64,000 nt of DNA from Candidatus Nomurabacteria bacterium. Lineage in GTDB: Bacteria; Patescibacteriota; Minisyncoccia; Phycocordibacterales; UBA918. Shown piece after piece: positions 7,996 through 40,030 of the stretch. The translations under genes were made by a program, and so were the position numbers. The DNA lies in NCBI GenBank assembly GCA_023898585.1, contig CP060229.1:594149-658148 (forward strand), given 5' to 3'. Within the stretch, counting starts at the first letter, position 1, and each line of letters starts with the position of its first letter. The notes under the pieces are model-generated. The model made no database searches. It saw only the letters and a program-made list of their open reading frames with translations, and was not told the DNA's origin.

Positions 7996-8007
7996 ATACA
8001 AGTTAAG

Positions 8008-33863: not shown

Positions 33864-34457
33864 ATGTGCGGAATGGAAACGAAATGGTTGATTGGTATTG
33901 ATGAGGCCGGACGAGGACCGCTTGCCGGCCCGGTCTCGGTTGGAGTAGTGGCTGTGCCTTTGAATTTTGATTGGAGTTTAATTGAAGGAGTGGGGGATAG
34001 TAAGGCGATTGTGCCGGAAAAGCGCGAAGCGCTTTTCCGGCGAGCGCAAGACCTCCGGCACCATCGGCAATTAAACTTTGCATCATCAATGGTCGGACCG
34101 TCAGTAATTGATGAAAAGGGAATAGTTTACGCCATCAACTTAGCTATGGGGCGCTGTCTAAAAAGATTAAATTTAAACGAGGACGGTTGTTTTATTAAGT
34201 TGGACGGCGCGCTTCGCGCGCCGTCCCAATTCCCCCAAGAAACCATCATCAAAGGCGACAGTAAGGAGAAAGTCATCGGCCTGGCTTCAATTGTAGCTAA
34301 GGTTACGAGAGACCGATACATGGAGCGGATCGCGAGACGCTACTTTCAATATGGTTTTGAGAAGCATAAAGGGTACGGCACACGGTCCCACCGATTGGCT
34401 ATTTTGAAATATGGTAAATGCCCAATTCACCGCGTTAGCTATTGTAAAAATATATAA
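33864..34457 (+). CDS. rnhB: Ribonuclease HII
   Basis: LIGIDEAGRGPLAGPV (DEAGRG catalytic motif) and downstream conserved blocks. Confidence 0.9.
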   Translation: MCGMETKWLIGIDEAGRGPLAGPVSVGVVAVPLNFDWSLIEGVGDSKAIVPEKREALFRRAQDLRHHRQLNFASSMVGPSVIDEKGIVYAINLAMGRCLKRLNLNEDGCFIKLDGALRAPSQFPQETIIKGDSKEKVIGLASIVAKVTRDRYMERIARRYFQYGFEKHKGYGTRSHRLAILKYGKCPIHRVSYCKNI

Positions 34458-34521
34458 ATGTTGTACAGTTTTGAATGGATTTGGGTATTAATTTACTTGG
34501 TTGTGTACTTTGGGGAAACAA

Positions 34522-34758
34522 ATGAATAGAAATGATCGCAGAGAAAGTGACAAAAGGAAGTCAGATTTATCTACTCCTGAACACATTGGTGCGTGTTCGG
34601 ATTGTGGTTGGCACAATGCTCAGGGTTCGTGGATAGTTGAAAACGGACGAGTTGTCGCAATCAGCTGTTTTAATGAAAAAGGTGTGGTGCCACCGCGGCT
34701 CGACATATCAGATCCAAAACAATGTGAGTGGTACAGATCGGGAATTTCGGTTGACTGA
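34522..34758 (+). CDS. Small Cys-containing hypothetical protein (78 aa)
   Basis: ATG 6 nt after GGGGA. CSDCGW...SCF...QCEW. Confidence 0.35.
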   Translation: MNRNDRRESDKRKSDLSTPEHIGACSDCGWHNAQGSWIVENGRVVAISCFNEKGVVPPRLDISDPKQCEWYRSGISVD

Positions 34759-34833
34759 AAACCCTGTTTGTTGTATCAATATAAGGTGCAATTGGGCACA
34801 AACAATTTTGACGAAACAAAAAATGGGGAAATA

Positions 34834-35061
34834 ATTGTGGAGACAACACAAATAGTAACAGAAAGCATCTGTTCTAGTTGCAATTCTAACTATCCTTCTC
34901 GGCTTTGTCAGGGTTCGCCTTCTTGTAACTGGGAACCTATACCTGGAGTAAACAATCCCAGAGATTGCGAGCGAACCCATGCGAACGATTGGACAGCTCG
35001 CGTGAGGAACAATGGGTATAGTAGCAAGAAAAACCCGAGCACTGTTCCTGGGCTGGGATAA
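34834..35061 (+). CDS. Small Cys-rich hypothetical protein (about 75 aa, GTG start)
   Basis: GTG 7 nt after GGGGA. CSSCNS...CQGSPSCNW...DCE. Followed by a terminator (AACCGG..CCGGTT plus T-run, about 35095-35135). Confidence 0.3.
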   Translation: MVETTQIVTESICSSCNSNYPSRLCQGSPSCNWEPIPGVNNPRDCERTHANDWTARVRNNGYSSKKNPSTVPGLG

Positions 35062-35203
35062 TATAACATTCGACCCTGCCTTCGGCAGTAGGATCAAAAC
35101 CGGTAAGCGTAAGCGAGCCGGTTCTTTTATACTTTTTTTCAAATAGAAACAATCCACGCAAAACCATTGCATTTGTTGATTTTTTTGCTATAGTTTCGCC
35201 ACT

Positions 35204-35533
35204 ATGGTAATTCGAATGCGTCACACGCGGGCACATACCGCGAACCGCCGTTCCCATCATGCGCTTAAAACGCCCACTTTAGCTATTTGTAGTAATTGTG
35301 GAGCAAAGCATCGTCCGCACCACATGTGTTTAGAATGTGGCTTTTACAATGGACGAATGGTGGTTGATATGGAGGCCAAGAAGAAAGCACGGGAGGAGCG
35401 TTTGCAGGCCAAGCGCGAAGCAATAAGAGGAGAAGAGCCTGAGTCTGCAGAGTCAGGAGAACCGGCTACTGCCGAAGTCAAGGAACTGAAAGGGGGAAAG
35501 AAAGAAGAAGCAAGAGACGAGAAGAAAAAATAA
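35204..35533 (+). CDS. rpmF: Ribosomal protein bL32 with K/E-rich C-terminal extension
   Basis: [17 protein letters not shown] and a C-x2-C...C-x2-C zinc ribbon ([20 protein letters not shown]). Confidence 0.8.
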
Positions 35534-35618
35534 ATTTAAATCCCCACCTGGGGATTTAAGTTTGTTTGGTTATTTTTCAGTGCTACACTTATGTTAGTAA
35601 AAGTTTAGTACATTTAAT

Positions 35619-36521
35619 ATGGCAAACCGACATTTATCGCGCAGTATTGTTCTTCAGTCACTCTTTGAGTGGGATTTAAACGCGTTAGAAAAAAAGGCGG
35701 TACTGGAAGTTTTAAATAGAAACGTCACGGAGTTCGCTCCCAACAAGACCGACATGCCATTTATGGAAAAACTACTCGATGGAGTGATGGCCAAACAACC
35801 CGAGCTCGATCTGGTGATAGAAAAAGCGGCCCCGGAGTGGCCCATCGACCGCATTTCTCCTGTCGATCGAAATATTCTTCGTCTCGGTCTATATGAGTTG
35901 CTTTTTGCAGACCGAGCGGAGGTCCCGGCCAAAGTCGCTATCAATGAAGCGATCGAACTTGCCAAGCAATTCGGCGGTGACAATAGCAGTCGTTTTGTTA
36001 ACGGCGTCCTCGGCGCTGTCTACAAAGAAATCGGCGAGCCTGGAAAGAACGAACAAAGCAAAAACCGCAAAAAAGACGTTCCCTTTGAAGAAATGCCGAT
36101 TGAGCGCCTGTCTGGAGCGGTTGTCTACGCGGTGCATGAAGGGCAAATTTACCTCGCCTTAGTACATGACATTTTCGGCCATTGGACTCTCTCTAAGAGC
36201 AAAGTGAAAGAAGAAGAATCATTTGAGGATGGCGCGACAAGAGCTTTATTGGAAGAAATCGGCTTGCCGGTCAAGATTGAAGATAGTCTCGGAAACAACG
36301 AATATGTAGCCTCTCAGCCGGAAAAAGGCAAGGTTCGGAAACAAGTTCAGTATTTCCTTGCGCAAGCACCATACCAAGATGTCGAATTGCTCAAGAAAGG
36401 CGGTCTCGACGACGCCAAGTGGTTTAAAGTGGCTGAAATTCTCGACCTTAATTTTTACGAAGATATCTTACCGATCGTGACTAAGGCCGTTACCGTGCTG
36501 GTTGGCAGGGGCTCAAAATAG
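35619..36521 (+). CDS. nusB: NusB-like antitermination domain fused to a C-terminal Nudix-hydrolase-like domain
   Basis: N-terminal 140 aa: RHLSRSIVLQSLFEWDL...RNILRLGLYELLF (NusB fold). C-terminal 150 aa: AVVYAVHEGQIYLALV...EEESFEDGATRALLEEIGL (Nudix box variant E-x7-RALLEEIGL) and DDAKWFKVAEIL. Confidence 0.7.
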   Translation: MANRHLSRSIVLQSLFEWDLNALEKKAVLEVLNRNVTEFAPNKTDMPFMEKLLDGVMAKQPELDLVIEKAAPEWPIDRISPVDRNILRLGLYELLFADRAEVPAKVAINEAIELAKQFGGDNSSRFVNGVLGAVYKEIGEPGKNEQSKNRKKDVPFEEMPIERLSGAVVYAVHEGQIYLALVHDIFGHWTLSKSKVKEEESFEDGATRALLEEIGLPVKIEDSLGNNEYVASQPEKGKVRKQVQYFLAQAPYQDVELLKKGGLDDAKWFKVAEILDLNFYEDILPIVTKAVTVLVGRGSK

Positions 36522-36569: not shown

Positions 36570-37289
36570 TTGTCTATGGAAGAACGAAATATTCAAACAG
36601 ATTTACTAAAACTGCAAAATTTACTCAATGTACAGTTTAAAGACACTACTGTCCTGCTTTCGGCTATTACGCACCGTTCGTATTTAAACGAACACCGGGA
36701 AGCAACCTGGGACCATAATGAACGCCTGGAGTTTTTGGGAGACGCGGTTTTGGAGTTGGTGGTGACCGATTATCTCTTTGCCAAGTACCCCGAAAAACCG
36801 GAGGGTGAACTGACTGCTGTAAGGGCGGCGCTGGTTAATACTGTGTCGCTGTCTGCCACCTCCGAGCAGATGGGAATCAATGAATACTTGCTCATGTCAA
36901 AGGGTGAAGCGAGAGATGTCGGGCGCGCGCGTCAGTATATTTTAGCCAATGCCTTTGAGGCTTGTATCGGGGCCATCTACAAAGATCAGGGTTATAGGGA
37001 AGCTAAGGAATTCATCGCCGGTCGTCTGTTTGAAAAAACCGATGAGATTGTCCGCAAGCGCTTATGGCAAGACGCCAAGAGCCGTTTTCAAGAACTGGCC
37101 CAAGAGCATGTCTCAGTTACTCCGACTTACGAGACCATTTCCCAAGACGGTCCCGATCATGACCGAGTATTTACCGTCGGTGTTTATTTAAAGAAAGTTT
37201 TAGTAGCCGAAGGAACAGGCTGTTCCAAGCAAGAGGCCGAACAAAAGGCCGCCGAGCAGGCCATTGTGGCGAAGGGTTGGGATGTTTAG
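36570..37289 (+). CDS. rnc: Ribonuclease III
   Basis: RNase III signature ERLEFLGDAVLELVV and C-terminal dsRBD. Confidence 0.9.
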   Translation: MSMEERNIQTDLLKLQNLLNVQFKDTTVLLSAITHRSYLNEHREATWDHNERLEFLGDAVLELVVTDYLFAKYPEKPEGELTAVRAALVNTVSLSATSEQMGINEYLLMSKGEARDVGRARQYILANAFEACIGAIYKDQGYREAKEFIAGRLFEKTDEIVRKRLWQDAKSRFQELAQEHVSVTPTYETISQDGPDHDRVFTVGVYLKKVLVAEGTGCSKQEAEQKAAEQAIVAKGWDV

Positions 37290-37380: not shown

Positions 37381-38073
37381 ATGAGAAAAATGTCTGTCGG
37401 AATGAGTCTGGTTGAGTTGTTGGTGGTCATGACCATAATCGCCATTTTGACCGCCGCCTTTGCCACCAGCTTTACCAAGGAATCTCAACAAAAGAGGGAT
37501 ATTCAAAGACAGTCTGATCTGCGGAATCTTCAAGTGGCGATTGAGCTTTATAAAAATAAGAATGGTCGGTATCCGGAGGGGTGTAACACGCCTGGTAATT
37601 GGTCTGGAGAGTTAGGGTCGAGTTATAAATGTGGTAATAATACCTCACAATACATAAAAAATTTAGCTCCTGAGTTTATTCCGGTTCTACCCACTGATCC
37701 TAAGCTAAACTGCCCATCGAGCGGATCTTGTAACAAGGGGTATGTTTATACGGTAAACGCCGACGGCAGTGTGTATAAATTAATGGCCAAGAATACAGTT
37801 GAGGCTGAGCCTGACAGTGATAATTTGAACGGCAAAGGTGTCGACTGGGACCATCCTTTCAAAAGTTGTGAAATTAGTGATGATAGCCAGTCATATTGTA
37901 CAGGCTCTCTGTCTGGAAACACGCCTCCTCATTGTCAAGAGAGTAACGATCAATTTAAAACCAGTTACGGTGTATGGGGAGGTTACGCTATACCAGATGT
38001 AGTTCCTGGTCATCCTCAATATGAAAACAAAATTAAAACAGGAACCAGGGCTATTATTTGCAACATCCCATAA
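37381..38073 (+). CDS. Type IV pilin / pseudopilin-like protein (class A of this array)
   Basis: Prepilin signal VGMSLVELLVVMTIIAIL (G at -1, E at +5), then LRNLQVAIELYKNKNGRYPEG. Confidence 0.75.
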   Translation: MRKMSVGMSLVELLVVMTIIAILTAAFATSFTKESQQKRDIQRQSDLRNLQVAIELYKNKNGRYPEGCNTPGNWSGELGSSYKCGNNTSQYIKNLAPEFIPVLPTDPKLNCPSSGSCNKGYVYTVNADGSVYKLMAKNTVEAEPDSDNLNGKGVDWDHPFKSCEISDDSQSYCTGSLSGNTPPHCQESNDQFKTSYGVWGGYAIPDVVPGHPQYENKIKTGTRAIICNIP

Positions 38074-38119
38074 ATATAACCCCTCAATCAAACCTTACAA
38101 CCACTGCATTTACCACAAC

Positions 38120-38704
38120 ATGAATTTTTACAAAAACAAAACAAACACCACCGGCTTCTCACTGATTGAAGTTATGATCGTGACCTCGATCATCGGTATT
38201 TTGGCGACATACGGGACATTCTCCTATAACGAAACCAAGAAGCAGGCACGCGATGTTAGGCGTATGGAAGACCTGACCACCATCGCCAAGGCATTTGTGT
38301 TGGCAGAAGAGGACAGGGGTCGGGCGTTTGATTGTGATTCGGGGGTGAGGATTGAGCCGGGTTTTATGTCTGCGGACAACAACACCGTAGTTGATTGTAG
38401 TGATAAAGACGAGATACAATCCGCTTTGGCAAAGTATTTGGGCAAAATACCGAGTGACCCTAAAGGCCCGGGCGATGCGAGGTATTTTTATTACTACAGC
38501 AATCATGATTGTCTCGCTCCGCAAAGCAAAGGATATCTAGTCCATGGCGCTATGGAAAATGACAGCAATTCCAACCGCGACCAGGTGTGTGGCAAAAAAG
38601 TCAATGGAACTGATGCGGGGTTGAATAATGAAGGTTACTACAATTACAACACTGGTCTAGGAGTCGCTAACCATCCCTTCGTCGTTCGGGTCGGAGATCT
38701 GTAG
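38120..38704 (+). CDS. Type IV pilin-like protein (class B)
   Basis: TGFSLIEVMIV prepilin motif. KQARDVRRMEDL...NHPFVVRVGDL. In-frame ATG chosen at the signal peptide. Confidence 0.75.
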   Translation: MNFYKNKTNTTGFSLIEVMIVTSIIGILATYGTFSYNETKKQARDVRRMEDLTTIAKAFVLAEEDRGRAFDCDSGVRIEPGFMSADNNTVVDCSDKDEIQSALAKYLGKIPSDPKGPGDARYFYYYSNHDCLAPQSKGYLVHGAMENDSNSNRDQVCGKKVNGTDAGLNNEGYYNYNTGLGVANHPFVVRVGDL

Positions 38705-38729
38705 TATTCCTCTTTAAATAAAAGTCAGT

Positions 38730-39365
38730 ATGTTCAAAGATATTTTACAAACAAAAAAATCCGGCTTCACCTTGGTGGAGCTCTTGGTGGTGATTGGGAT
38801 TATCGGGGTTTTGGTCGGAGCGGTTTCTTTGAATTTCAACGCTTCCAAAGTAAAGGCCAGAAACGAAGCTTTTCAAAATTCTCTGGAAGAATTACGTCTG
38901 GCCATGAATCTCTACAAGGCTAAGTACGGGAGATATCCGGAGGCTAATAGCAATTGTTCCACTTATTCTTATTCTGGTAATATTACAAAAATACACAAAA
39001 CAGACGCTAGTGGATGCGCCGGTTTCGAAATAATTTCCGGAATGGTACCGGATTTTGTTGATGGCTTACCTTCGGCCAAGAGTTCGGCCAATGAGAATTG
39101 TGTAATTACCTATCAAGTTCATGGTGATAACATTGGTACCTGGGGTGATAATATCATTGATGGTGATTGGTATAAACTGACGGCCGAAAATTGTCACGGC
39201 GGAGCTTCTTCACCGGCCGAAGGTATTCAGCCGGGAGACAGATTTGCTCGCTGTCCGGATAGTTGTTCTGACTGTAATGGTGTCACCTACGCGACGATCA
39301 AAGTAGACAAGTCTTTTTATGAGTCTTACAGTATCTACAGTAGCAGTACAGGCATGTGTCGCTAG
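38730..39365 (+). CDS. Type IV pilin-like protein (class A paralog)
   Basis: SGFTLVELLVVIGIIG, and LRLAMNLYKAKYGRYPE shared with the first pilin. Confidence 0.75.
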   Translation: MFKDILQTKKSGFTLVELLVVIGIIGVLVGAVSLNFNASKVKARNEAFQNSLEELRLAMNLYKAKYGRYPEANSNCSTYSYSGNITKIHKTDASGCAGFEIISGMVPDFVDGLPSAKSSANENCVITYQVHGDNIGTWGDNIIDGDWYKLTAENCHGGASSPAEGIQPGDRFARCPDSCSDCNGVTYATIKVDKSFYESYSIYSSSTGMCR

Positions 39366-39448
39366 ATTTCAAATAAAATATTTAAACTATAAGAAACCCC
39401 TGTGCACACGTAAAACAATCCATCTCCCCTCGGTGGTACAATATCACC

Positions 39449-40030
39449 ATGATTAAACTTAATTCGCGGGCTGGCTATTCTTTGCTTGAGATTATGGTGG
39501 TGGTGTCTATTATCACTATACTGGCTTCCATCGGCGCCTATTCTTTAAACGAAAGTTCAAAACAAGCTCGTGATGTTAAGCGAATTGAAGAATTAAAGCA
39601 AATAGCAAAAGTGTTAAGTTTGGCTGAATTTGAGTTGGGGAGGGAGATAAAGTGTGGTGGCGGAACACGTATAGAATCCGGTTTTAAGGAAGAGGATGGT
39701 GTAACACCGCTTACAGAAACTAGCTGTGCAGACATAGAAATAATAAAGAGATACATAACCGAGTATTTTCCTGAAGTGCCACACGATCCCAAAGGCCCAG
39801 ATGATAAAAGATACTTTTATTATTATGATCGACATGATTGTCCACTTCCACAAAAAAATGGCTTCTTGGTTTATGCCGCCATGGAAAATGAAAGCAATTC
39901 CAACCGTGATGAAGTGTGTGGGAAAAAGGATAATTCAAACGAGGGAGGTAATAATCATGGCTACTACAATTACCATCCAGTTTTAAAAGTTCACAATCAT
40001 CCCTACGTTGTACGGGTCGGAGATCTATAG
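39449..40030 (+). CDS. Type IV pilin-like protein (class B paralog)
   Basis: AGYSLLEIMVV. KQARDVKRIEEL...NHPYVVRVGDL is nearly identical in its blocks to the second pilin. Confidence 0.75.
   Translation: MIKLNSRAGYSLLEIMVVVSIITILASIGAYSLNESSKQARDVKRIEELKQIAKVLSLAEFELGREIKCGGGTRIESGFKEEDGVTPLTETSCADIEIIKRYITEYFPEVPHDPKGPDDKRYFYYYDRHDCPLPQKNGFLVYAAMENESNSNRDEVCGKKDNSNEGGNNHGYYNYHPVLKVHNHPYVVRVGDL

What the first reader, a model, noticed from the sequence alone, without database searches (positions are those of the whole stretch)
35619..36521. NusB fused to a Nudix-hydrolase-like domain
NusB is normally a standalone protein of about 140 aa. Here a canonical NusB N-domain is followed in the same ORF by about 150 aa with a Nudix-box-like E-x7-RALLEEIGL motif and typical Nudix flanks (AVVYAV..., DDAKWF). 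This couples an rRNA antitermination factor to a nucleotide pyrophosphohydrolase, which could be decapping, alarmone or dinucleoside-polyphosphate hydrolysis at transcribing RNAP. The REx vs RAx deviation might indicate a catalytically altered or binding-only module.
Basis: seen in the sequence. Interest (0 to 1): 0.55.

Follow-up and report, generated by a model that had tools for sequence, protein, structure and literature searches.

The report
NusB fused to degenerate Nudix domain
This Patescibacteria genome, like hundreds of related ones, makes its rRNA antitermination factor NusB as one protein with a nucleotide-binding Nudix domain that has lost a key catalytic residue, so NusB here probably carries a nucleotide or RNA-5'-end binding module that nobody has yet described or tested.

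Summary
ORF 35619..36521(+) encodes 300 aa in three parts: a complete NusB (aa 1-138), a conserved Gly/Pro/Lys-rich tether (139-160), and a Nudix-fold domain (161-298). It is not a frameshift. More than 8000 database proteins carry both Pfam domains, at least 590 species-representative genomes (all named ones Patescibacteria) encode it, and 77 of 80 fetched loci have both domains in one frame, in a conserved dnaE/rnhB/rpmF/nusB-nudix/rnc gene string. The Nudix half belongs to the Ap4A-hydrolase / NUDT2 / RppH-like subgroup. Residues that clamp adenine and the first phosphate in NUDT2 are invariant across 120 non-redundant fusions. The Nudix-box Glu of "RE" is Ala here, which matches the inactive human NUDT2 E58A mutant. 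That position is Glu in only 52 of 120 sequences and changed about 48 times on the tree. Only 43 of 120 keep a full catalytic box. Both halves are under purifying selection. The best reading is that this is the clade's working NusB carrying a tethered adenine-nucleotide-polyphosphate binding module (free ApnA/ATP-type ligand or an RNA 5' end) whose hydrolytic activity is impaired and dispensable. No paper describing the fusion was found, and databases label it plain NusB. It is a new variant of known kinds and of moderate interest.

The parts
35619..36521 (+). Whole nusB-nudix ORF (300 aa plus stop codon)
   Evidence: ORF list and sequence. Identical to database protein P0001, labelled 'transcription antitermination factor NusB [Candidatus Nomurabacteria bacterium]' and seen on a 994,774-bp contig.
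35619..36032 (+). NusB domain, aa 1-138 (seven helices, ends at helix alpha7)
   Evidence: Pfam PF01029 at 126 bits and TIGR01951 at 130.6 bits, above the 88.35 cutoff. phmmer against PDB NusB chains gives E 5e-19 to 2e-15, aligned end to end. Foldseek TMt is 0.84-0.87 to M. tuberculosis, E. coli and Aquifex NusB. F126 corresponds to NusB-F122, the BoxA-U8 stacking residue, and is invariant in the family (PMC3177189).
36033..36098 (+). Interdomain tether, aa 139-160: conserved G-E-P-G-K, then a Lys-rich run, then (M/L)-P
   Evidence: pLDDT falls below 50 at aa 144-150. In 120 non-redundant fusions G139 is kept in 103, P141 in 105, K143 in 102, K148 in 86 and P160 in 96, so it is not a random spacer. 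Met159 is Met in only 51 of 120, so there is no conserved internal start.
36099..36512 (+). Nudix-fold domain, aa 161-298, of the ApnA-hydrolase / NUDT2 / RppH-like subgroup
   Evidence: Pfam PF00293 at 42.8-45.4 bits. Foldseek gives Aquifex Ap4A hydrolase 3i7u at TMt 0.87 and Thermus Ndx1 at 0.86, followed by Rv2985/MutT1, CT771 and the NrtR Nudix domain. The family profile against PDB gives 3i7u at E 2.4e-18, then CT771, Ndx1, human and C. elegans Ap4A hydrolases and Dcp2.
36198..36266 (+). Degenerate Nudix box, aa 194-216: S-x5-E-x7-R-A-L-x-E-E-x-G-L, against the canonical G-x5-E-x7-R-E-U-x-E-E-x-G-U
   Evidence: Read directly from the translation. The canonical motif is taken from PMC5389931.
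36243..36245 (+). Codon GCT = Ala209, at the position of the 'RE' glutamate (human NUDT2 Glu58, Thermus Ndx1 Glu46)
   Evidence: The sequence reads aga gct at 36240-36245. NUDT2 E58A releases no phosphate from PPP-RNA (PMC8616924). The position is Glu in only 52 of 120 fusions, with 48 changes on the tree.
35528..35577 (+). Strong hairpin plus T-run between rpmF and nusB-nudix (terminator-like element)
   Evidence: The terminator scan finds an 18-bp stem. The RNA fold gives -31.4 kcal/mol, z = -5.1 against shuffles.
35204..35533 (+). rpmF (ribosomal protein L32), conserved upstream neighbour
   Evidence: Pfam Ribosomal_L32p. Found upstream of the fusion in most of the 80 loci.
36570..37289 (+). 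rnc (RNase III), conserved downstream neighbour, 48 nt after the fusion's stop codon
   Evidence: Pfam Ribonuclease_3 plus dsrm. Lies directly downstream in 79 of 80 loci, often abutting or overlapping the fusion's stop codon. Also present in the most divergent fusions, L081 (4-nt overlap) and L083.

Best explanation
The gene encodes this organism's NusB, and most likely its only one. Residues 1-138 are a complete NusB. By homology this part should pair with ribosomal protein S10 (NusE) on the BoxA element of nascent rRNA leaders and join the RNA polymerase antitermination complex (inferred). A conserved 20-residue Gly/Pro/Lys-rich tether leaves the C-terminal end of helix alpha7, the BoxA-binding helix, and leads to a 140-residue Nudix domain of the Ap4A-hydrolase / NUDT2 / RppH type (shown). 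In that domain, the residues that in human NUDT2 sandwich the adenine ring and hold the first phosphate are invariant across the whole fusion family. The Nudix-box glutamate needed for hydrolysis in NUDT2 is Ala in this protein and drifts freely among E, K, V, A and I in the family (shown). The module therefore most likely binds an adenine-nucleotide 5'-polyphosphate rather than turning it over efficiently. The ligand could be a free ApnA/ATP-type nucleotide or the pppA/Np4-capped 5' end of the transcript that NusB is already sitting on. Either way it would couple that ligand to the rRNA antitermination and RNase III processing machinery (inferred). Orthologues with an intact box may still hydrolyse. 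In this protein's own clade the S...RA variant is fixed, so hydrolysis is predicted to be weak or absent.
For: Architecture: both domains pass curated cutoffs, and the model has two confident domains and a flexible linker.

Not an artefact: all 240 listed proteins of 8000+ scored hits carry both Pfam domains. At least 590 species-representative genomes encode it. 77 of 80 loci are in one frame with the conserved gene order dnaE(-)/rnhB/rpmF/nusB-nudix/rnc. The same gene order holds for fusions only 31-35% identical in the Nudix half.

NusB competence: F126 (= F122, BoxA-U8 stacking) is invariant, D83 corresponds to E81, and F16 sits at the Y18 NusE-interface position.

Subfamily: the PDB sequence, profile and fold searches all put ApnA hydrolases first.

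Binding pocket kept: through the alignment, K193 = NUDT2 Lys42, Y229 = Tyr82, K241 = Lys89, Y280 = Phe128, D282 = Glu130 and W189 = Trp38. PMC4734340 assigns these residues to P1-phosphate binding, adenine stacking and adenine N6 hydrogen bonding. They are 107-120 of 120 conserved, equally so in the canonical-box and degenerate-box subsets.

Catalysis relaxed: position 209 is Glu in 52 of 120 with 48 Fitch changes. Only 43 of 120 have the full E/R/E/E/E set, with at least 27 switches on the tree. A209 corresponds to NUDT2 E58, and E58A is inactive on PPP-RNA.

Still functional: dN is 0.08-0.23 in the Nudix half with saturated dS, so selection is purifying.

No second NusB or Nudix ORF exists in the 64-kb window.
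Against: No biochemical data exist for any member. E200, R208, E212 and E213 are retained here, and 43 of 120 fusions keep a perfect box, so some hydrolysis cannot be excluded. Nudix enzymes with RL..AE boxes, such as GDP-mannose mannosyl hydrolase, are still enzymes (PMC5389931). The residue mapping rests on sequence and profile alignment to NUDT2, because I could not access the model coordinates. The Nudix half is acidic (pI about 5.1, net charge about -7), which argues against an extended RNA-binding surface and leaves open whether the ligand is a free nucleotide or an RNA 5' end. Whether the genome lacks a second, standalone nusB could not be checked beyond the window. The tree used for counting changes is a simple neighbour-joining tree.
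Confidence: 0.55

Rival explanations
1. The Nudix domain is an active pyrophosphohydrolase delivered to the transcribing polymerase by NusB. It would clear ApnA, or convert the 5'-ppp or Np4A-capped end of the nascent rRNA leader to 5'-monophosphate, priming maturation together with the co-transcribed RNase III.
For: The subfamily is that of Ap4A/Ap6A hydrolases, NUDT2 and RppH-type enzymes. NUDT2 and RppH act on PPP-RNA. 43 of 120 fusions keep a perfect Nudix box, and E213 is kept in 115 of 120. The query keeps E200, R208, E212 and E213. rnc is the invariant downstream neighbour. Some Nudix enzymes with altered boxes remain catalytic.
Against: The query and its whole clade (119 sequences with S..E..RA..EE.G) carry Ala at the position whose E-to-A change inactivates NUDT2. 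That position changed about 48 times among E, K, V, A, I and G, while the binding residues never vary. This pattern is not expected if hydrolysis were the selected function.
Confidence: 0.27
2. The Nudix domain has no small-molecule or RNA-end ligand. It is a structural or protein-docking module of the antitermination complex, for example contacting RNAP, NusA or S4, or standing in for an accessory factor such as SuhB, an enzyme fold used structurally in the E. coli rRNA antitermination complex.
For: Non-enzymatic, protein-interaction roles are an established class of Nudix domains (PMC5389931). SuhB is an enzyme fold that forms an integral part of the rrn antitermination complex (abstracts of PMC6614801 and PMC6614797). 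The catalytic box is degenerate. The tether is conserved.
Against: The invariant residues are precisely those that bind adenine and phosphate in homologous enzymes, and the metal-ligand E213 is kept in 115 of 120. A pure docking surface would not be expected to preserve the ligand pocket this strictly.
Confidence: 0.13
3. The fusion is an artefact: a frameshift, sequencing error or mis-assembly joined two adjacent genes. Alternatively, the Nudix half is made separately from an internal start codon.
For: Met159 sits at the domain boundary. Some database entries of 140-170 aa begin 'MP(I/V)E...' at that point. One related genome (L078) has the two halves in different frames.
Against: 77 of 80 independent species-level loci are in one frame, and two of the other three are cut by contig ends. 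L078 is a roughly 20-codon deletion inside NusB, not a gene boundary. Met159 is Met in only 51 of 120 sequences. Thousands of independent assemblies give 297-305 aa proteins with both domains.
Confidence: 0.02

Closest known systems
Standalone bacterial NusB (E. coli, Aquifex aeolicus, Thermotoga maritima, M. tuberculosis; TIGR01951 / PF01029)
   Same: The N-terminal 138 aa align end to end and pass the equivalog cutoff. The all-helical fold matches at TMt 0.84-0.87. The BoxA-stacking Phe (F126 = F122) and the E81 and Y18 equivalents are kept.
   Different: Canonical NusB is a single-domain protein of about 140 aa. Here helix alpha7 continues into a conserved tether and a 140-aa Nudix domain. 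The gene sits between rpmF and rnc.
Asymmetric ApnA hydrolases and RNA 5'-pyrophosphohydrolases of the Nudix superfamily (human NUDT2, C. elegans Ap4A hydrolase, Aquifex aq_158, Thermus Ndx1, Chlamydia CT771/NudH, RppH)
   Same: These are the best sequence, profile and fold matches. They share the W-x-x-P/S-K-G motif. The adenine-stacking Tyr/Phe pair, the P1-phosphate Lys and the adenine-N6 acidic residue are conserved.
   Different: The Nudix box is degenerate: Ser for the first Gly, and Ala for the RE glutamate, which is the NUDT2 E58A inactive mutant. No NCBIfam equivalog is reached (RppH model 13.7 bits against a cutoff of 118). The domain is fused to a transcription factor rather than free-standing.
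Non-catalytic Nudix domains attached to or acting with nucleic-acid-binding modules (NrtR/AraR effector domains; NUDT21/CFIm25)
   Same: A Nudix fold with substituted box glutamates serves as a ligand- or RNA-binding module in a gene-expression factor. The NrtR Nudix domain (3gz8) and AraR (5bs6) are among the fold and sequence hits. CFIm25 has the box GX5EX7RLX2EIXGR.
   Different: The partner domain is NusB, not a winged-helix DNA binder. Sequence affinity is closer to ApnA hydrolases than to the ADP-ribose pyrophosphatase-derived NrtR. The degeneration is patchy, since 43 of 120 keep a full box, rather than fixed.
RsmB/Sun (16S rRNA m5C967 methyltransferase)
   Same: This is the one well-known case of a NusB-like N-terminal domain fused to a C-terminal enzyme domain acting on rRNA. 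The NusB half gives sub-threshold hits to RsmB models (63 bits against a cutoff of 319).
   Different: The C-terminal domain here is Nudix rather than a SAM methyltransferase. The N-domain is an orthologous NusB (it passes TIGR01951), not the divergent RsmB version.
SuhB in the E. coli rRNA antitermination complex
   Same: An enzyme fold (inositol monophosphatase) recruited as an integral component of the Nus-factor complex on rRNA operons (PMC6614801 and PMC6614797). This is a conceptual precedent for an enzyme-derived module in the same machine.
   Different: SuhB has an unrelated fold, is a separate polypeptide, and is not fused to NusB.

Membership tests
NusB (TIGR01951 / PF01029) | Sequence passes the curated family model over the full domain length | tested here: met
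   TIGR01951 scores 130.6 bits against a cutoff of 88.35, covering aa 4-137 on model positions 2-130 of 131. PF01029 scores 126 bits.
NusB (TIGR01951 / PF01029) | All-helical NusB fold | tested here: met
   The AF2 model has seven helices with pLDDT around 95. Foldseek TMt is 0.84-0.87 to 1eyv, 3imq, 3r2d and 4eya.
NusB (TIGR01951 / PF01029) | Conserved aromatic in helix alpha7 that stacks on BoxA U8 (NusB-F122), and the acidic residue that reads U8 (E81) | tested here: met
   F126 aligns with Aquifex F122 and is invariant in 38 diverse fusions. D83 aligns with E81 and is conserved in at least 90% (residue roles from PMC3177189).
NusB (TIGR01951 / PF01029) | Binds NusE/S10 and BoxA RNA and supports antitermination | not testable with these tools
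   Only inferred. F16 occupies the position of E. coli Y18 in the NusE interface. No rRNA operon or BoxA match above chance was found in the window.
NusB (TIGR01951 / PF01029) | Single-domain protein of about 130-150 aa | tested here: not met
   The protein is 300 aa, with a 162-aa C-terminal extension.
Nudix superfamily (PF00293, Nudix fold) | Nudix alpha/beta/alpha fold of about 130 aa with the loop-helix-loop | tested here: met
   PF00293 scores 42.8-45.4 bits against a cutoff of 21.1. Foldseek TMt is 0.82-0.87 to Nudix hydrolases, and a helix at aa 202-214 occupies the box position.
Nudix hydrolases (catalytically competent) | Complete Nudix box GX5EX7REUXEEXGU | tested here: not met
   The box reads S194-x5-E200-x7-R208-A209-L-L-E212-E213-I-G215-L, so the first Gly and the RE glutamate are substituted. 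The motif definition comes from PMC5389931.
Nudix hydrolases (catalytically competent) | Mg2+/Mn2+-dependent pyrophosphohydrolase activity | not testable with these tools
   Predicted to be weak or absent, because A209 corresponds to the inactive NUDT2 E58A.
Asymmetric ApnA hydrolase / NUDT2 / RppH-like subgroup | Closest relatives by sequence, profile and fold | tested here: met
   phmmer ranks CT771, Ndx1, Rv2985 and Aquifex Ap4A hydrolase first. The profile search gives 3i7u at 2.4e-18, then CT771, Ndx1, NUDT2, the C. elegans enzyme and Dcp2. Foldseek gives the same order.
Asymmetric ApnA hydrolase / NUDT2 / RppH-like subgroup | Adenine-stacking aromatic pair and P1-phosphate Lys/His/Tyr ligands | tested here: met
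   K193 = Lys42, Y229 = Tyr82, K241 = Lys89, Y280 = Phe128, D282 = Glu130 and H188 = His37, by the alignment. Residue roles come from PMC4734340. Conservation is 107-120 of 120 for all except H188, which varies among H, Y and K.
Asymmetric ApnA hydrolase / NUDT2 / RppH-like subgroup | Catalytic RE glutamate (NUDT2 Glu58, Ndx1 Glu46) | tested here: not met
   It is Ala209 in the query, and Glu in only 52 of 120 fusions.
Asymmetric ApnA hydrolase / NUDT2 / RppH-like subgroup | Passes a curated equivalog model (RppH, MutT1, NudC and others) | tested here: not met
   The best scores are MutT1 NF052459 at 24.8-27.5 bits against 475, NudC at 20-22 against 158, and RppH at 13.7-15.8 against 118.
Non-catalytic Nudix effector/RNA-binding domains (NrtR, CFIm25 type) | Nudix fold with substituted box glutamates, joined to a nucleic-acid-binding partner | tested here: met
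   The box is degenerate and the domain is covalently joined to the RNA-binding NusB. The NrtR and AraR Nudix domains appear among the hits.
Non-catalytic Nudix effector/RNA-binding domains (NrtR, CFIm25 type) | Winged-helix DNA-binding domain (NrtR), or UGUA-RNA recognition as a CFIm dimer (CFIm25) | tested here: not met
   No wHTH domain was found. The only other domain is NusB.

The most novel reading that the evidence does not exclude
In a large clade of Patescibacteria the Nus antitermination complex has gained a built-in, catalytically silenced sensor or anchor. The Nudix module on NusB would capture either the stress and translation-status nucleotide Ap4A (or ATP), or the pppA/Np4A-capped 5' end of the nascent rRNA leader. 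This would gate or tether rRNA antitermination and hand the transcript to the co-encoded RNase III. It would be a regulatory input to rRNA synthesis with no counterpart in model bacteria, possibly compensating for missing regulators in these reduced genomes.
Probability: 0.25. Interest if true: 0.75.

Novelty: new variant of a known kind. Interest (0 to 1): 0.5.

Why it matters
NusB is one of the most conserved bacterial transcription factors and has been studied as a minimal single-domain protein. Here a whole radiation of ultra-small, mostly uncultivated bacteria (at least 590 species-level genomes) makes it only as a fusion with an Ap4A-hydrolase/RppH-like domain. That domain's ligand pocket is frozen while its catalytic glutamate is free to vary. 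This is a clean natural example of an enzyme fold being converted into a binding module. It also gives a concrete, testable lead on how rRNA transcription and processing might be wired to nucleotide signals or RNA 5'-end chemistry in Patescibacteria, whose regulation is almost unknown. On the practical side, public annotation labels these proteins plain 'NusB' and hides the second domain.

Tried and rejected
Frameshift or mis-assembly was rejected, because 77 of 80 loci are in one frame.

A natural split in L078 was rejected. It is a roughly 20-codon deletion with a frame change inside NusB.

An internal start at Met159 producing a free Nudix protein was rejected, because Met is conserved in only 51 of 120. 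The 140-170 aa 'MPIE...' database entries are most likely fragments from short contigs.

A locus search with the diverse C-half alignment A2 failed for lack of a conserved stretch. It was repeated with the tighter alignment A3.

dN/dS ratios could not be computed properly, because dS is saturated between species representatives. Only the qualitative statement that dN is low while dS is saturated is used.

Rfam at gathering threshold on the whole window found only one tRNA. A permissive scan of 34400-35700 found nothing.

A BoxA consensus search in the window gave 5 hits against 7.6 expected, so there is no signal.

Four literature searches for the fusion returned nothing relevant: NusB+Nudix, NusB+Patescibacteria, Nudix+Parcubacteria and NusB+Candidate Phyla Radiation.

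The CT771 paper (PMC3956076) is not held. The AlphaFold-DB fold library is unavailable.

Cluster-member look-ups for the nearest standalone Nudix relatives and for divergent fusions gave almost no taxon names. The donor lineage of the Nudix domain and the outer phyletic limits of the fusion therefore remain open.

Spatial clustering of conserved residues was replaced by alignment-based mapping to NUDT2.
Full report
**Observation.** Pfam places a NusB domain at aa 7-136 (126 bits, E 1.6e-36) and a NUDIX domain at aa 177-282 (42.8 bits, E 6e-11; gathering cutoff 21.1). The NCBIfam equivalog model for NusB (TIGR01951) is passed at 130.6 bits against a cutoff of 88.35. No Nudix equivalog model comes anywhere near its cutoff.

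**Structure.** An AlphaFold2 model built on 38 diverse homologues has mean pLDDT 93. It shows seven helices up to residue 138, a low-confidence segment (pLDDT below 50 at 144-150), and then a beta-rich domain with a helix at 202-214, the Nudix-box position. pTM is only 0.62, as expected for two independently folded domains on a flexible tether. Foldseek against the PDB matches the C-domain to Aquifex Ap4A hydrolase (TMt 0.87), Thermus Ndx1 Ap6A hydrolase (0.86), M. tuberculosis Rv2985, M. smegmatis MutT1, Chlamydia CT771, C. elegans and human Ap4A hydrolases and the NrtR Nudix domain. It matches the N-domain to NusB structures at TMt 0.84-0.87.

**Not an artefact, and not rare.**
- The exact protein is in public databases, from a 'Candidatus Nomurabacteria' MAG with a 994,774-bp contig, labelled only 'transcription antitermination factor NusB'.
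- The 120 best hits to the single sequence and the 120 best hits to a family profile all carry both Pfam domains. Both searches were capped at 8000 scored hits.
- Searching the C-half alone against 1.84 billion 50%-identity representatives gave 696 hits. Among the best 150, at least 39 are full-length NusB+Nudix proteins, down to about 30% identity in the Nudix half. Most of the shorter hits look like fragments.
All 80 fetched loci come from Patescibacteria-type MAGs, variously labelled Paceibacterota, Parcubacteria, Kaiserbacteria, Adlerbacteria, Elulimicrobium and Minisyncoccia.
- In 77 of 80 loci the NusB and Nudix matches lie in one open frame. Two exceptions are cut by contig ends. The third (L078) has a roughly 20-codon deletion with a frame change inside NusB.
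- The gene order dnaE(-)/rnhB/rpmF/nusB-nudix/rnc is conserved in essentially all loci. It persists in the most divergent fusions examined, L081/L082 and L083. In L081 the fusion's stop codon overlaps the rnc start by 4 nt, and an SMC-like gene follows, as it does in the window.
- Met159 at the domain boundary is not conserved (51 of 120), so there is no evidence for separate translation of the Nudix half.

**The NusB half looks fully functional.** It aligns end to end with solved NusB proteins and stops where they stop.
- Through that alignment, F126 corresponds to NusB-F122, the alpha7 aromatic that stacks on BoxA U8 and whose mutation abolishes function (PMC3177189). F126 is one of only four invariant columns in a 38-sequence alignment of diverse fusions.
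- D83 corresponds to E81, which reads U8.
- F16 sits at the position of E. coli Y18 in the NusE interface.
- N122 sits at the position of D118, the site of the nusB101 D118N gain-of-affinity allele.
- No other NusB or Nudix ORF exists in the 64-kb window.

That this is the only NusB in the genome is an inference from the small genome size and from database naming. It was not tested.

**What kind of Nudix domain.** Sequence, profile and fold searches agree on the asymmetric ApnA-hydrolase group. This group also contains NUDT2 and the NudH/RppH-type enzymes, and Dcp2 is the next closest. The signature W-x-x-(P/S)-K-G preceding the box is typical of the group.

**The key result is the conservation pattern.** I assembled 344 full-length fusions and reduced them to 120 sequences below 80% identity.

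| Position in query | Role | Conservation in 120 | Changes on NJ tree |
|---|---|---|---|
| 209 (Ala) | Glu of 'RE' | E 52, K 23, V 15, A 14, I 6, G 5 | 48 |
| 212 | first Glu of 'EE' | E 93 | 24 |
| 200 | Glu of GX5E | E 99 | 20 |
| 208 | Arg of 'RE' | R 103 | 17 |
| 213 | second Glu of 'EE' | E 115 | 5 |

Only 43 of 120 sequences have the full E/R/E/E/E set, with at least 27 switches between the canonical and non-canonical state. By contrast W189, Y280, D184, K193, W268, Y229, G166, T190 and Y245 are conserved in 115-120 of 120. They are equally invariant in the canonical and non-canonical subsets.

**Mapping to NUDT2.** Using the HMMER alignment of the family profile to human NUDT2 (PDB 3u53) and the residue roles described for human, C. 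elegans and Plasmodium Ap4A hydrolases (PMC4734340):

| Query residue | NUDT2 residue | Role |
|---|---|---|
| K193 | Lys42 | P1 phosphate |
| Y229 | Tyr82 | adenine stacking and P1 phosphate |
| K241 | Lys89 | phosphate region |
| Y280 | Phe128 | second stacking residue |
| D282 | Glu130 | hydrogen bond to adenine N6 |
| W189 | Trp38 | conserved in the group |
| A209 | Glu58 | 'RE' glutamate |

In NUDT2 the motif reads R57-E58-T-Q-E61-E62. The E58A mutant releases no phosphate from 5'-triphosphate RNA or from pppGpA, and it is the form crystallised as PDB 4ijx (PMC8616924). The window protein is therefore a natural equivalent of an engineered catalytically dead, substrate-trapping mutant. All 119 close relatives in my set share the same S..E..RA..EE.G box.

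**Selection.** Between the window and species-level relatives, synonymous sites are saturated. dN is 0.04-0.16 in the NusB half and 0.08-0.23 in the Nudix half. Both halves are under purifying selection, and the Nudix half evolves roughly twice as fast. Mean pairwise amino-acid identity among 74 sequences is 69% for NusB, 60% for the tether and 62% for Nudix. The tether is not a random spacer, since Y135-K-E-I-G-E-P-G-K143 and a following Lys run are conserved.

**Mechanism.**
- Shown: this is a bona fide NusB with a C-terminal Nudix domain of the ApnA-hydrolase type, on a conserved tether that leaves the BoxA-binding helix. The ligand-contact residues are invariant and the catalytic box is relaxed. 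rnc is an invariant neighbour.
- Inferred: the protein works as NusB, pairing with S10 on BoxA in the rRNA antitermination complex. The Nudix module binds an adenine-nucleotide 5'-polyphosphate with impaired or no turnover.
- Two ligand classes fit: free ApnA/ATP-type nucleotides, or the pppA/Np4A-capped 5' end of the nascent transcript, since NUDT2 and RppH both act on RNA 5' ends. The acidic character of the domain (pI about 5.1, net charge about -7) argues against an extended RNA-binding surface but does not separate these two options.
- Lys or Arg at position 209 in 25 of 120 members could contact phosphate directly in place of a metal ion. This is speculation.

I rate the binding-module reading at about 0.55, an active tethered hydrolase at about 0.27, a ligand-free docking module at about 0.13, and an artefact at about 0.02.

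**Comparison with known systems.** The protein is a member of the NusB family on every testable criterion except single-domain architecture. It is a member of the Nudix fold superfamily and of the ApnA-hydrolase-like subgroup by similarity and pocket residues. It fails the defining full Nudix box and the catalytic glutamate, so I do not file it as a Nudix hydrolase.

Functionally it most resembles the non-catalytic Nudix modules of NrtR/AraR regulators and CFIm25, whose box is GX5EX7RLX2EIXGR (PMC5389931), but with a different partner domain and a different Nudix lineage. RsmB is the known precedent for a NusB-like domain fused to an rRNA-directed enzyme. SuhB is the precedent for an enzyme fold built into the rRNA antitermination complex.

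**Novelty.** Four targeted full-text searches found no description of a NusB-Nudix fusion, and NCBIfam has no model for it. The architecture is nonetheless abundantly present in databases, correctly domain-annotated by Pfam, and simply named NusB. I classify it as a new variant of known kinds. Interest is moderate (0.5). A transcription specialist would be surprised that an entire bacterial radiation carries NusB only in this form, and the conservation pattern gives a sharp, cheap experimental test. No new biochemical principle is yet demonstrated.

**Limits.**
- There is no biochemistry for any member.
- The change counts rest on a neighbour-joining tree.
- Whole genomes could not be inspected for a second nusB or for other ApnA or 5'-end enzymes.
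- The taxonomic limits of the fusion and the donor of the Nudix domain are unresolved.

Noticed in passing
window 34458-35203: A 746-nt stretch between rnhB and rpmF has no convincing ORF, no Rfam match even at E<=1, and almost no conservation in 80 related loci apart from the last ~40 nt before rpmF. One 85-aa Cys-containing ORF (34501-34758) has a single weak hit in L002. It is unusually long non-coding or fast-evolving DNA for a ~1-Mb genome.
   Followed up: partly
window 35204-35533: Ribosomal protein L32 is 109 aa, but the Pfam L32p model covers only aa 6-55. The C-terminal ~50 residues are a Lys/Glu-rich low-complexity extension.
   Followed up: no
window 35528-35577: A strong 18-bp hairpin followed by a T-run lies between rpmF and nusB-nudix (-31.4 kcal/mol, z = -5.1). 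It looks like an intrinsic terminator or attenuator directly upstream of an antitermination-factor gene. No clear Shine-Dalgarno sequence is visible before the nusB start codon.
   Followed up: partly
window 37381-40030: At least four tandem type IV pilin-like genes with the N-terminal methylation motif sit directly downstream of rnc. The genes at 38021-38704 and 39449-40030 are paralogues ending in ...HP(F/Y)VVRVGDL. A pilin gene follows rnc in many related loci as well.
   Followed up: no
window 36033-36098 (aa 139-160 of the fusion): The interdomain tether is conserved in sequence (Y-K-E-I-G-E-P-G-K followed by a Lys run) despite low model confidence. This suggests it is itself functional, possibly contacting RNA next to BoxA.
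   Followed up: partly
window 35982-35984 (Asn122 of the fusion): By alignment, Asn122 occupies the position of E. coli NusB Asp118. The nusB101 D118N change at that site increases affinity for lambda BoxA, and Aquifex has Lys there contacting BoxA G9 (PMC3177189).
   Followed up: no
L078 5450-6450: One related genome has a ~20-codon deletion with a frame change inside the NusB part of the fusion. It could be a pseudogene or an assembly error. It is the only one of 78 complete loci that is not in a single frame.
   Followed up: yes
P0227 and P0200 (representative-library hits): The same Nudix subfamily occurs in other fusions. P0227 combines sigma70 region 4, the DnaA C-terminal HTH and NUDIX. 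P0200 is 577 aa, with a ~315-aa N-terminal region before NusB+NUDIX. The subfamily seems prone to joining nucleic-acid-binding domains.
   Followed up: partly
L081 5882-5885; several loci (e.g. L032, L043, L048, L064): In many relatives the nusB-nudix stop codon abuts or overlaps the rnc start codon, a 4-nt overlap in L081. This indicates translational coupling of the fusion with RNase III. The window itself has a 48-nt spacer.
   Followed up: partly
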